Shown here one piece after another: positions 12,141 to 13,819 of a stretch of DNA of 24,032 nucleotides. The DNA is taken from positions 1 through 24,032 of the forward strand of contig CAZECW010000184.1 of the NCBI GenBank assembly GCA_964510585.1. The letters are read 5' to 3'. Under the pieces are notes generated by a model, which was given only the letters and a program-made list of their open reading frames with translations, was not told the DNA's origin and made no database searches. How positions within the stretch are numbered: position 1 is the stretch's first letter; each line of letters starts with the position of its first letter. This DNA comes from an uncultured archaeon. Lineage in GTDB: Archaea; Asgardarchaeota; Jordiarchaeia; Jordiarchaeales; Jordiarchaeaceae. The position numbers and the translations under genes are program-made.

Positions 12141-12302
12141 CCATACTTTCAAATAAACTTTCTGGAGATTCATCCCCACGACTAAAGTCGGGGGCTTTCT
12201 CGCCAAGGTTTTGTAAAGCCATCGGATAATTTTTAAAATGTGAAAAATGGGTTAAAGGTTGAATTCTTGGTTTCTTACCTAGAAAAGGGGAGAGGGTGTG
12301 TT

Positions 12303-12375
12303 GATTTGGTTAACTTTGGCTAAGTTTTGGGGATAAAACGTCACCTATTCTTTTCGGTTTTATTCCCCCCAAATC
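12303..12375 (-). promoter_or_regulatory. Structured 3'-UTR hairpin with tandem G.A (K-loop-like) core; candidate SECIS
   Basis: On the minus strand: GAUUUGG/CCAAAUC outer stem, GGGG-A-AUAAAAC/GUUUUAU-CCCC inner stem, apex C-CGA-A..9 nt..U-GA-C-G. It starts 4 nt after the stop of the TGA-containing gene. The function is inferred. Confidence 0.45.
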
Positions 12376-12379
12376 TTTT

Positions 12380-12838
12380 TTAATTTTTTAATTTTTTGAG
12401 GGTTTCCAGTATTTCTTCGGTTTTTGGTATGTCGTGCATGGAGTCGCTGTAGTAGGCGTATTTTATTGTTCCTTCCCTGTCTATTATTAGTAGTGCGGGC
12501 ATTCTTCCCAGTTTGCGTAGTATTATTTCTTGTTTTAGGAGTTTGGCGACTTTTTGGGTCTCATCATAGTATATGGGGTATTTTCTTTTGGCGTATTTTG
12601 TTTCCAGTTTTTTGGCGTTTTCAAGCTTGTCCACGGTAATGGGGTATAGTTCGGTGTTTAGTTGCTGGAACTCATTTATGTGGTTTGCTAGTCTGGCGAC
12701 GTGTCCTCTACAGTAGGGTCAGGAAATTCCTCTCAGTAAAACCAGCAAAACGTTTCTTTTCCCCTCAAAGTCTCGAATGTTGACTGTTTCCCCTCTCGAA
12801 TTAGGCAAGCTAAACTCAGGGATCCTTGTACCAACCAT
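12380..12838 (-). CDS. Peroxiredoxin-like (AhpC/TSA, thioredoxin-fold) protein with in-frame TGA; probable selenoprotein (UxxC)
   Basis: My translation from the ATG at 12838 gives MVGTRIPEFSLPNSRGETVNIRDFEGKRNVLLVLLRGIS(TGA)PYCRGHVARLA..., continuing in frame into the 84-aa ORF 12380-12634, 152 aa in total. The TGA (12719-12721, codon 40) sits at the first position of the redoxin CxxC motif. Confidence 0.88.
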
Positions 12839-12943
12839 TTGAAACTTGTCCTTCGTTCTACCACCACCTCCTCCACTAATTTAAAAAAATAGTATTTCAT
12901 ATTCATATGTTGGTTCGATATTTTTGGGCTTATGTACTTTTTA

Positions 12944-13819
12944 TTATTTTTTTAGGCCTAGGATTTCTCGTGCTTCGTCTGGGGTTGCTACTGGTCGTTG
13001 TAGTTCTTTGGCTATTCTTACCACTTTTGCTACGAGTTCGGCGTTGCTTTTTGCTAGAACGCCTTTTTCAAGGTAGATGTTGTCTTCCATGCCTACTCTT
13101 ACGTGTCCTCCGAGGAGTATGGCTCCTGTGGCCATTTCCATCTCGAATCTTCCGGGGGCGCAGACAGACCAGGTCCAGTTTTTTGGGATTTGGTCTACGC
13201 AGTAGATTAGGGTTTTGAGGTCGGGTGACATGCAGGAGAGTCCGCCGAACATTACGAATTGGATGTGTAGGGGTTCTTTTAGTGAGCCTTCGGCTACTAG
13301 CCTTTTGGCCGTGTTTATTTGTCCAGTGTCGTAGATTTCAAGTTCGGGTTTAACGTTGTTTTCATACATCCAGCCTGCCCACTTTACGATTGTGCTTACT
13401 GGGTTTCCGAAGATTACGTTTCTGAGGACTGGTAGTCCCATGTCCTCCCAGAGGTTGAGTGAGCCCATGTTTAGTGATGAGAGGTCTTGCTTGAAGGTCA
13501 TCCTCTCCTTCATTATTTCGTCCATTTTTTCTGGGTCGACTCTGCCCCCTCCAGTTGTGATGTTTATGATTAGGTCTGAGGCCTCACTCTCCCTTATTCT
13601 TTTAACGTACTCTTTTAGAACTGGGTTTGGGTCTTTTGCCGAGCCGCCTGTTTCCGGGTCTTTGGCGTGGAGATGAACCACTGAGGCACCAGCCTTCCTG
13701 CATTTTACGCATTCCTCAATAACTTCGTCAATTGTTGCGGGAACATGTGGTGTCTGGGCTCTGGAAATGAATTCTCCGCCAGTAAGGGCGGCTGTTATTA
13801 TGAGTTTCTCCCTAGCCAT
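12944..13819 (-). CDS. 3-keto-5-aminohexanoate cleavage enzyme family (BKACE / DUF849)
   Basis: KLIITAALTG, HLHAKD (Zn-binding HxH), KPELEIYD and GGHVRVGMEDN motifs. The ATG at 13819 follows a GGAGGTGG RBS (ORF track gives 13840). The specific substrate is not assignable. Confidence 0.9.
   Translation of the reverse strand: MAREKLIITAALTGGEFISRAQTPHVPATIDEVIEECVKCRKAGASVVHLHAKDPETGGSAKDPNPVLKEYVKRIRESEASDLIINITTGGGRVDPEKMDEIMKERMTFKQDLSSLNMGSLNLWEDMGLPVLRNVIFGNPVSTIVKWAGWMYENNVKPELEIYDTGQINTAKRLVAEGSLKEPLHIQFVMFGGLSCMSPDLKTLIYCVDQIPKNWTWSVCAPGRFEMEMATGAILLGGHVRVGMEDNIYLEKGVLAKSNAELVAKVVRIAKELQRPVATPDEAREILGLKK

What the first reader, a model, noticed from the sequence alone, without database searches (positions are those of the whole stretch)
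12380..12838. Hidden selenoprotein: peroxiredoxin-like redoxin with a U-P-Y-C active site
Seen: the ORF caller reports only the last 84 aa, but the frame is open for 152 codons apart from a single TGA, and both halves are redoxin-like (P.FSLPNSRGETV...VLLVLLRG before; MPALLIIDREGTIKYAY after). The TGA falls at the redox-active first position of CxxC. Established: UxxC thioredoxin-fold proteins are a classic selenoprotein class, and Sec usage including Prx-like proteins has been reported in Asgard archaea. Standard annotation would call this truncated or a pseudogene.
Basis: partly seen in the sequence, partly recalled or inferred. Interest (0 to 1): 0.78.

Follow-up and report, generated by a model that had tools for sequence, protein, structure and literature searches.

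The report
Known Asgard Prx-like selenoprotein gene
The in-frame TGA really does sit in an intact thioredoxin-fold redox gene that almost certainly encodes selenocysteine, but this selenoprotein family (PrxL) is already published for Asgard archaea, including this lineage.

Summary
Window 12380-12838 (-) is one 152-codon frame with a single TGA (12719-12721) in the box ...LLRGIS-U-PYC-RGH. The read-through protein is a full AhpC/TSA-Redoxin domain with a confident peroxiredoxin-like model.

- **Conservation:** all 80 fetched relatives carry TGA at this column. They span nine or so Asgard lineages and six Anaerolineae, at 38-87% identity.
- **Sec/Cys pair:** more distant homologues have Cys at this column.
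- **TGA is still a stop:** it ends the neighbouring gene and 13 of 72 Asgard orthologues.
- **Purifying selection:** a sister strain differs at 11 codons. Ten changes are synonymous, and nine of those lie upstream of the TGA.
- **Sec machinery:** the genome has PSTK, EFSec, SepSecS, a Sec-containing SelD and a two-intron tRNA-Sec. Standard tools missed the tRNA.

The gene is the orthologue (82% identity) of the Jordarchaeum PrxL sequence in Huang et al. 2024. PrxL was also reported by Mariotti 2016, Sun 2021 and Valentin-Alvarado 2024.

One point is possibly new. The conserved 3'-UTR element is a covariation-supported three-way junction. It lacks the AUGA/GA core that the SelD and VhuD SECIS elements of this genome have.

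The parts
12380..12838 (-). prxL coding sequence: ATG 12836-12838, 152 residues with Sec at residue 40, stop TAA 12380-12382
   Evidence: Translation. Pfam AhpC-TSA 3e-23 and Redoxin 6e-18 over the whole length. AlphaFold model pLDDT 91, with peroxiredoxins as nearest folds at TM 0.85-0.88.
12719..12721 (-). In-frame TGA read as selenocysteine (U40), first position of the U-P-Y-C redox box
   Evidence: TGA at this column in 80/80 related loci. Cys at this column in 16 of 21 more distant homologues aligned. No variant in contigs of 4 metagenome runs.
12710..12712 (-). TGT, Cys43: the only Cys of the protein and the second position of the redox box. It aligns with the peroxidatic Cys of BCP peroxiredoxin.
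   Evidence: Alignment to PDB 2cx3 and 3hdc. 59 of 72 Asgard orthologues have exactly one Cys and 12 have none.
12839..12856 (-). Six conserved codons (T-K-D-K-F-Q) upstream of the ATG. ACG 12854-12856 aligns with the ATG/TTG start of other Asgard orthologues, so it is a possible non-AUG start giving a 158-aa protein.
   Evidence: Codon alignment of upstream regions. ACG is kept in the window and in L027-L032. The KDKF codons vary only synonymously among the closest relatives. Inference; not shown.
12861..12874 (-). GGAGGAGGUGGUGG, a Shine-Dalgarno-like purine run. It ends 4 nt before the ACG and 22 nt before the ATG.
   Evidence: Sequence. Conserved as GGAGGAGGTGGT in L027-L029.
12303..12375 (-). 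Conserved 3'-UTR three-way junction, the candidate SECIS. Outer stem 12369-12375 / 12303-12309. Hairpin 1 stem 12357-12367 / 12329-12339 with a 17-nt loop 12340-12356 (CGAAAAGAAUAGGUGAC). Hairpin 2 stem 12323-12326 / 12312-12315 with loop UAGCCAA.
   Evidence: On 69 orthologous 3' UTRs, 91% of cells are paired, 21 of 22 pairs have compensatory changes, and 0 of 500 shuffles reach the observed values. Covariance model R1 scores 75.6 bits here. All six strain differences inside 12303-12376 fall at unpaired positions.

Best explanation
This is the prxL gene of a hot-spring Asgard archaeon of the Jordarchaeia/Freyarchaeia lineage. It encodes a cytoplasmic thioredoxin/peroxiredoxin-fold redox protein of 152 aa, or 158 aa if translation starts at ACG. 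Its UGA codon 40 is decoded as selenocysteine.

**Shown:**
- One intact, conserved frame spans the TGA.
- TGA or Cys occupies this column across the family.
- The genome has a full archaeal/eukaryotic-type Sec pathway: SelD, PSTK, SepSecS, EFSec and tRNA-Sec.
- TGA is otherwise a stop codon here.
- A covariation-supported structured RNA begins 5 nt after the stop codon.

**Inferred, recoding:** EFSec-Sec-tRNA(Sec) is recruited to UGA40 by the 3'-UTR element. Its hairpin 1 is an 11-bp stem with an A-rich loop ending in UGA. This matches the stem-loop of the published lokiSECIS in size and position, but it sits in a three-way junction without the AUGA/GA kink-turn core.

**Inferred, chemistry:**
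- Sec40 lies at the N-cap of the active-site helix and is the attacking nucleophile.
- Cys43 resolves it into a selenenylsulfide, which an external thiol or thioredoxin system then reduces.
- I favour a peroxide or sulfenate-reducing (peroxidase-like) role at about 0.5, against a protein-disulfide reductase role at about 0.35. The reasons are that the fold is closest to BCP/AhpE peroxiredoxins and that 12 orthologues keep Sec but have lost every Cys.
For: - **Frame and domain:**
- **TGA column:** kept in 80/80 loci, covering Jordarchaeia, Freyarchaeia, Atabeyarchaeia, Loki-, Hel-, Hermod-, Hod-, Sigyn- and Borrarchaeum lineages and 6 Anaerolineae.
- **Cys in distant homologues:**. The PDB protein 3hdc has WCPYC aligned to SUPYC.
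- **'W' homologues:** they are TGA read under code 4.
- **TGA as a stop:** it ends 2 of 14 long ORFs in the window, including the next gene, and 13 of 72 Asgard orthologues.
- **Strain comparison:** 10 of 11 changed codons are synonymous, 9 of them upstream of the TGA.
- **Sec machinery:** SepSecS 435 bits, SelB/EFSec 302 bits, PSTK 207 bits, all on C146. SelD scores 228 bits and carries a TGA.
- **tRNA-Sec:** at C146:17106-17256. ARAGORN calls it tRNA-SeC(tca) once two inserts are removed in silico.
- **3'-UTR element:**. It is absent from a non-Sec paralogue (L125) and from the bacterial orthologues. Those have a hairpin about 20 nt after the UGA instead.
- **Literature:** PMC4989117, PMC9723677, PMC11291895, PMC11227280.
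Against: - There is no direct evidence of Sec insertion: no proteomics and no 75Se labelling.
- The 3'-UTR element lacks the AUGA...GA core. That core defines published Asgard SECIS elements and is present after SelD and two VhuD genes of the same genome. Its role as a SECIS is therefore inferred from position and conservation only.
- The enzymatic activity of the PrxL family has never been measured (stated in PMC4989117).
- The active site lacks the PxxxT/SxxC peroxiredoxin motif.
Confidence: 0.93

Rival explanations
1. It is a pseudogene or truncated gene. The TGA is a real stop, and at most the 84-aa C-terminal ORF (12380-12634) is made.
For: This is what ORF callers and public annotation produce. 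Examples are the 84-aa ORF and the 103-aa 'redoxin domain-containing protein' annotated in a Freyarchaeota MAG.
Against: - The N-terminal 39 codons are conserved in 80 species with the TGA in place.
- 9 of 9 strain differences upstream of the TGA are synonymous.
- The 84-aa piece would lack the redox box and half of the fold.
Confidence: 0.02
2. The TGA is read as a standard amino acid, either Trp (as in code 4 or 25) or by near-cognate read-through, and not as Sec.
For: Many database homologues show W at this column.
Against: - Where the DNA could be read, the W is a TGA codon, and it is the only TGA or TGG codon in that protein.
- TGA terminates neighbouring genes and 13 orthologues.
- Distant homologues have Cys, not Trp, at the first position of a CxxC box.
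- A complete Sec pathway is present.
Confidence: 0.02
3. It is a true selenoprotein, but the three-way junction is not its SECIS. It would be, for example, a terminator or stability element, with the real signal lying elsewhere or being a weak canonical element that I missed.
For: The junction has no AUGA/GA kink-turn core. Published surveys describe prxL SECIS elements as type I eSECIS-like with that core.
Against: - No canonical AUGA/GUGA-stem-GA element exists within 400 nt downstream in the window, and only chance-like matches occur in the orthologues. The same script finds the elements after SelD and VhuD.
- The junction is the only conserved structure. It follows the stop codon directly in every Asgard orthologue and in both tandem paralogues of Borrarchaeum.
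- It is missing from the bacterial orthologues and from a non-Sec paralogue.
Confidence: 0.2

Closest known systems
Asgard PrxL selenoprotein ('Prx-like thiol:disulfide oxidoreductase'): PrxL.2 type of Mariotti et al. 2016 (PMC4989117). The Jordarchaeum madagascariense sequence GCA_019056875 is in Huang et al. 2024 (PMC11227280). Also listed for Jordarchaeia (PMC9723677) and for Freyarchaeia/Atabeyarchaeia (PMC11291895).
   Same: Same gene. It is 82% identical to the J. madagascariense locus L030 and 86-87% identical to three other Jordarchaeia/Freyarchaeota MAGs. It shares the U-P-Y-C box, has a single Cys, is the same length, and has the same BKACE / prxL / 5'-nucleotidase / DNA ligase neighbourhood.
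   Different: Nothing of substance. This copy is unannotated in its assembly. The start position seems to be ACG in this clade.
Bacterial Prx-like selenoproteins (Zhang and Gladyshev 2008, cited in PMC4989117). Here: six Anaerolineae/Chloroflexota orthologues, L101-L106.
   Same: 38-42% identity, a U-P-(Y/F/H)-C box at the same column, and a single Cys.
   Different: The bacterial genes have a stem-loop about 20 nt after the UGA, inside the coding sequence (bacterial SECIS position). They have no 3'-UTR junction.
BCP/PrxQ and AhpE peroxiredoxins (PDB 2cx3, 3drn, 3hjp, 1xxu)
   Same: Overall fold, with TM 0.84-0.88, and sequence E 4e-8 to 2cx3. Cys43 aligns with the peroxidatic Cys.
   Different: Peroxiredoxins have P-x-x-x-T/S-x-x-C. 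Here Sec occupies the T/S position, giving a thioredoxin-type U-x-x-C box, and the Pro is replaced.
TlpA/ResA-type thioredoxin-family proteins with a W-C-P-Y-C box (PDB 3hdc, 3c71)
   Same: The identical -CPYC- box aligns to -UPYC-. The R-x-P motif ahead of the ...IDR.G strand also aligns.
   Different: These proteins have Cys instead of Sec, and they are mostly exported and membrane-anchored. This protein has no signal peptide or anchor in its sequence.
lokiSECIS / Asgard type I eSECIS-like element (PMC4989117, PMC11227280)
   Same: It lies directly after the stop codon. It has a 9-11-bp stem with a 12-17-nt A-rich loop. The loops of the Lokiarchaeum and Promethearchaeum prxL elements (GUAAACCnnUGG) resemble the loop of a VhuD SECIS in this genome (GUAAACCUUUGA).
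   Different: There is no AUGA before the stem and no GA after it. Those positions are Watson-Crick pairs that covary. The hairpin is one arm of a three-way junction whose second arm carries a nearly invariant UAGCC loop.

Membership tests
Asgard PrxL selenoprotein family | Thioredoxin-fold AhpC/TSA-Redoxin domain | tested here: met
   Pfam AhpC-TSA 3e-23 and Redoxin 6e-18. Model pLDDT 91, with peroxiredoxin neighbours at TM 0.85-0.88.
Asgard PrxL selenoprotein family | U-x-x-C redox box in place of the T/S-x-x-C of true peroxiredoxins, with Sec at the first position | tested here: met
   The box reads ...GIS-U-PYC-RGH. U aligns with the Ser of SPVC in 2cx3 and with the first Cys of WCPYC in 3hdc.
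Asgard PrxL selenoprotein family | The in-frame TGA is conserved in orthologues, and Cys-containing homologues exist (Sec/Cys pair) | tested here: met
   80/80 loci have TGA. Cys is at the column in 16 of 21 distant homologues. Halobacterial CPKC homologues appear in the published alignment.
Asgard PrxL selenoprotein family | No Cys outside the redox box | tested here: met
   The window protein has a single Cys (C43). 59 of 72 Asgard orthologues have one Cys and 12 have none.
Asgard PrxL selenoprotein family | The genome encodes the archaeal/eukaryotic Sec pathway (SelD/SPS, PSTK, SepSecS, EFSec, tRNA-Sec) | tested here: met
   for the proteins. tRNA-Sec lies at C146:17106-17256 and was recognised only after in-silico removal of two inserts.
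Asgard PrxL selenoprotein family | Orthology to a published member | tested here: met
   82% identity over 152 residues to the J. madagascariense locus L030. The same protein text appears in the supplementary alignment of Huang et al. 2024. Synteny with Freyarchaeota MAGs.
Asgard PrxL selenoprotein family | Selenocysteine actually inserted (protein-level evidence) | not testable with these tools
   No proteomic data were available and no RNA run is listed. By the literature read, the family itself has never been characterised experimentally.
Typical peroxiredoxin (Prx) | P-x-x-x-T/S-x-x-C peroxidatic motif | tested here: not met
   Aligned to 2cx3 (FFPAAFSPVC), the window has LLRGISUPYC: Arg in place of Pro and Sec in place of Ser/Thr.
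Typical peroxiredoxin (Prx) | Conserved active-site Arg before the ...F(I/V)ID strand | tested here: inconclusive
   The Arg of 2cx3 aligns with P114. An invariant R112 lies two residues earlier, in G-R-M-P. No side-chain geometry was analysed.
lokiSECIS / type I eSECIS-like element | AUGA (or GUGA) immediately 5' of a 7-15-bp stem and GA/AA immediately 3' (kink-turn core) | tested here: not met
   The pattern search found none within 400 nt of the stop in the window, and only chance-like hits in the orthologues. The same search finds the elements after SelD and two VhuD genes. The flanking positions are covarying Watson-Crick pairs.
lokiSECIS / type I eSECIS-like element | About a 9-bp stem with about an 11-nt A-rich apical loop, located just after the stop codon | tested here: met
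   Hairpin 1 has an 11-bp stem and a 17-nt loop in the window, and a 9-bp stem with a 12-nt loop in the Loki-type orthologues. It starts 5-25 nt after the stop.

The most novel reading that the evidence does not exclude
The recoding signal of prxL is a distinct SECIS architecture. It is a three-way junction, conserved in every Asgard class sampled, in which the kink-turn AUGA/GA core of the canonical Asgard/eukaryote-like SECIS is replaced by ordinary base pairs. Its conserved single-stranded features are an A-rich hairpin loop that often closes with GA...UGA, and a nearly invariant UAGCC loop on a second arm. If it works as a SECIS, Sec insertion in Asgard archaea does not strictly need the kink-turn core. 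That bears on how the core, later read by SBP2 in eukaryotes, came to be required. I could not check whether the published prxL SECIS calls already correspond to this hairpin, because their tables were not readable here.
Probability: 0.3. Interest if true: 0.55.

Novelty: already known. Interest (0 to 1): 0.2.

Why it matters
**For annotation.** The gene is systematically mis-called. Public records hold either 84-103-aa fragments or full-length proteins with a false Trp produced by code-4 gene calling. A redox enzyme found across all the Asgard lineages sampled here is therefore hidden or misrepresented in databases.

**For biology.** The selenoprotein adds nothing new, since the family and this lineage's orthologue are published.

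**What may be worth a specialist's look.**
- The 3'-UTR three-way junction lacks a kink-turn core.
- The start position appears to be a conserved ACG.
- tRNA-Sec carries two introns, and it sits inside the Sec gene cluster. The introns explain why Sec-trait surveys that require a detectable tRNA-Sec can miss this lineage.

Tried and rejected
- **Rfam on the window:** the gathering-threshold scan gave no hits, and none to any SECIS family.
- **Direct tRNA-Sec searches failed:** Rfam RF01852 on the whole genome, ARAGORN with and without introns, and Rfam at E<=1 on the Sec cluster. Only 5-7 tRNAs of any kind are detectable in the 3.78-Mb assembly, so those blanks meant nothing. The gene was then found by homology to a weak hit in a complete Freyarchaeia genome.
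- **Canonical SECIS search:** the AUGA/GUGA-stem-loop-GA/AA pattern found nothing downstream of prxL.
- **Model R1 on the whole genome:** it found only the prxL copy. However, only 150 of 3353 first-look candidates were scored, so other copies are not excluded.
- **Supplementary SECIS tables:** those of Mariotti 2016 and Huang 2024 are not held as text. I could not compare my element with their prxL SECIS coordinates.
- **RNA evidence:** no RNA holder is listed for this stretch, so expression could not be examined.
- **One protein's contig:** the DNA was not retrievable.
- **k-junction reading of the junction:** rejected. The G and A at the foot of hairpin 1 pair and covary with C and U.
- **Methanogen-type GAA/A SECIS reading of hairpin 1:** rejected. 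There is no second stem above the GAA.

Full report
**Observation.**
- On the minus strand, the frame from ATG 12836-12838 to TAA 12380-12382 is open for 152 residues, apart from one TGA at 12719-12721.
- The mechanical ORF list gives only the 84-aa tail, 12380-12634.
- Read through, the protein is VGTRIPEFSLPNSRGETV...VLLVLLRGIS-U-PYC-RGHV...GRMPALLIIDREGTIKYAYY....
- Pfam AhpC-TSA covers residues 2-127 over profile positions 1-123 of 124 (E 3e-23), and Redoxin covers residues 2-143 (E 6e-18). The two 'halves' are therefore one domain.

**Is the TGA a sense codon?**
- A scan of one genome per prokaryotic species returned 450 confirmed relatives. The best 80 were kept.
- All 80 have TGA at the same column.
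- They come from Jordarchaeia and Freyarchaeota MAGs (82-87% identity) and complete Freyarchaeia and Atabeyarchaeia genomes (66-72%). They also come from many Loki-, Hel-, Hermod-, Hod-, Sigyn- and Borrarchaeum genomes, including the cultured Lokiarchaeum ossiferum and Promethearchaeum syntrophicum (49-63%), and from six Anaerolineae (38-42%).
- The box is UPYC in 46, UPFC in 19, UPHC in 2, and UPYA, UPHA, UPYS or UPYT in 13.
- Full-length database homologues carry 'W' at this column. Where the DNA could be read, the gene translates only with TGA=W, and that TGA is the only TGA or TGG codon in it. The W is therefore an artefact of code-4 gene calling on short contigs.
- More distant homologues (27-35% identity) have Cys there, inside a CxxC box, in 16 of 21 aligned.
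- TGA is not reassigned. It ends 2 of 14 long ORFs in the window, including the neighbouring 5'-nucleotidase gene, and it is the true stop of 13 of 72 Asgard orthologues.
- Contigs of four hot-spring metagenome runs from four studies, one of which may be the source, show no difference at 12719-12721.
- A sister strain about 96% identical differs at 11 codons. Ten changes are synonymous, and nine of those lie upstream of the TGA. The part that ORF callers drop is under purifying selection as coding sequence.

**Sec machinery.**
- The genome is 3.78 Mb in 217 contigs and 96% complete.
- Contig C146 encodes PSTK (207 bits), EFSec/SelB (302 bits) and SepSecS (435 bits).
- C193 encodes SelD (228 bits), which has its own in-frame TGA in G-U-S-C-K.
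- tRNA-Sec was not found by Rfam or ARAGORN. Only 5-7 tRNAs of any kind are detectable in this assembly. The Jordarchaeum type MAG is likewise described with 6 tRNAs (PMC9723677).
- A weak 116-nt Rfam hit in the complete Freyarchaeia genome carries the CUUCAAA anticodon loop. It matches C146:17150-17258 at 88% identity.
- The full gene is C146:17106-17256 (-), 1.1 kb beyond SepSecS. It has a 9-bp acceptor stem (GGCGGACUG/CAGUCCGCC) and is interrupted by about 28 nt in the D-loop and about 31-34 nt in the T-loop.
- After in-silico removal of both inserts, ARAGORN calls tRNA-SeC(tca) for every plausible border. The exact borders are not established.

**Fold and chemistry.**
- The AlphaFold model is confident (pLDDT 91, pTM 0.87). 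U40 sits just before helix 41-52.
- The nearest solved folds are BCP/PrxQ, AhpE and Prx6 peroxiredoxins, at TM 0.84-0.88.
- By sequence, Cys43 aligns with the peroxidatic Cys of Aeropyrum BCP, and U40 aligns with the Ser of its S-P-V-C motif.
- Against the thioredoxin-family protein 3hdc, -SUPYC- aligns with -WCPYC-.
- This is exactly the 'Prx-like' definition of Mariotti et al. 2016: a thioredoxin-type CxxC box in a Prx scaffold, with Sec at the first Cys.
- The protein has no other Cys, and 12 orthologues have none at all.
- I infer that Sec40 is the attacking nucleophile and Cys43 the resolving residue.
- I lean to a peroxide or sulfenate-reducing role rather than a dithiol-disulfide reductase role, because Sec is kept where the resolving Cys is lost. 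No activity has been measured for any member.

**The 3' UTR.**
- A structured element begins 5 nt after the stop and spans 12303-12375.
- It has a 7-bp outer stem (GAUUUGG/CCAAAUC).
- Hairpin 1 has an 11-bp stem and the 17-nt loop CGAAAAGAAUAGGUGAC.
- Hairpin 2 has a 4-bp stem and the loop UAGCCAA.
- On 69 non-identical orthologous 3' UTRs, 91% of cells pair and 21 of 22 pairs show compensatory changes. No shuffle out of 500 reaches the observed values, and sliding the partners by 1-3 columns collapses pairing to 35-57%.
- The UAGCCA loop is present in 61 of 69. Hairpin 1's loop ends in UGA(N) in 48 of 69 and begins (N)GAA in 30 of 69.
- All six strain differences inside the element fall at unpaired positions.
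- A covariance model of the element also finds it after each of two tandem prxL paralogues (UGHU and UPYC) in Borrarchaeum weybense.
- The model does not find it in a non-Sec paralogue, in the six bacterial orthologues, or after SelD or VhuD. The bacterial genes instead have a covarying hairpin about 20 nt after the UGA.
- In this same genome, SelD and two VhuD genes carry the canonical Asgard element: AUGA or GUGA, then a 9-bp stem, a 12-16-nt loop, and GA.
- prxL has no such element within 400 nt. The positions that would be AUGA/GA at the foot of hairpin 1 are covarying Watson-Crick pairs.
- Hairpin 1 nevertheless has the size and loop character of the lokiSECIS. The Lokiarchaeum and Promethearchaeum prxL loops read GUAAACCnnUGG, against GUAAACCUUUGA in a VhuD element here.
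- I therefore take the junction to be the prxL SECIS, with confidence of about 0.75. It is a variant that lacks the kink-turn core.
- Published surveys describe prxL elements as type I with an AUGA_GA core. Their tables were not readable here, so I cannot say whether this difference has been noticed.
My fold of the VhuD 3' UTR is compatible with that.

**Comparison with the literature.**
- PrxL is one of five selenoprotein families found in Lokiarchaeota in 2016 (PMC4989117).
- It is listed among the three selenoproteins of Jordarchaeia and Sifarchaeia (PMC9723677).
- It is listed among those of Freyarchaeia and Atabeyarchaeia (PMC11291895).
- It was found in 43% of Sec-using Asgard genomes (PMC11227280).
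- The supplementary alignment of that last paper contains the Jordarchaeum madagascariense orthologue (...VVIVLLRGIT-X-PYCRGHVARLANHIHEF...). It corresponds to locus L030, which is 82% identical to the window protein.
- The neighbourhood TPR / TPR / BKACE / prxL / 5'-nucleotidase / DNA ligase is shared with Freyarchaeota MAGs.

**Verdict.** The gene is a real and very probably functional selenoprotein gene. It is an already-known family in an already-reported lineage, so interest is low. The residual interest lies in three side observations: the kink-turn-less three-way-junction element, the conserved ACG at the ancestral start position, and the doubly interrupted tRNA-Sec.

Noticed in passing
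own genome G000:C146:17106-17256 (-), in locus L022 at about 13107-13257: A tRNA-Sec gene lies inside the Sec gene cluster, 1.1 kb past SepSecS. It is interrupted by two inserts, about 28 nt in the D-loop and about 31-34 nt in the T-loop. Rfam and ARAGORN miss it until the inserts are removed in silico. A homologous interrupted gene exists in the complete Freyarchaeia genome CP147778 (L129).
   Followed up: yes
window 12854-12856 (-), with 12861-12874: At the position where other Asgard prxL genes start (ATG or TTG, then K-D-K-F), the window and six Jordarchaeia/Freyarchaeia/Atabeyarchaeia relatives have ACG. It is preceded at SD-like distance by GGAGGAGGUGGU. The following KDKF codons are conserved with synonymous variation among the closest relatives. 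This suggests a conserved non-AUG (ACG) start, 6 codons upstream of the ATG.
   Followed up: partly
L003 (G000:C193:53368-54288 region): The SelD gene has the expected Sec codon (G-U-S-C-K). It also has a 10-codon insert (NVNHNDLHA*) with an in-frame TAA, inside the conserved NDVY/A(M/I)GG motif. I did not test that.
   Followed up: no
whole genome G000: Only 5-7 tRNA genes are detectable in a 96%-complete 3.78-Mb assembly, and most of those are 93-107 nt long, so they probably carry introns. The tRNA-Sec case suggests that many tRNA genes here are hidden by non-canonical introns rather than missing.
   Followed up: partly
L123 (Borrarchaeum weybense, G005:C4:673253-674380): Two tandem prxL paralogues lie on one strand. 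The upstream one has a U-G-H-U box (two Sec) and the downstream one has U-P-Y-C. Each is followed by its own copy of the three-way-junction element (76 and 75 bits with model R1).
   Followed up: partly
L101-L106 (Anaerolineae / Chloroflexota MAGs): These are bacterial orthologues at 38-42% identity with TGA at the same column. Each has a covarying hairpin about 20 nt downstream of the UGA (for example CUCGCGC-AGUU-GCGCGAG). One protein family is thus recoded by domain-specific signals in archaea and bacteria. The direction of any transfer was not examined.
   Followed up: partly
protein database hits P0001-P0040: The full-length 'homologues with Trp' on short metagenomic contigs are selenoprotein genes translated under code 4. 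On long contigs and NCBI MAGs, the same gene is annotated as an 84-103-aa fragment.
   Followed up: yes
window 12278-12300 (-): A pyrimidine-rich tract ending in UUUU (CCCUCUCCCCUUUUCU) follows the junction. Similar T-runs follow it in most orthologues. This may be the transcript end.
   Followed up: no
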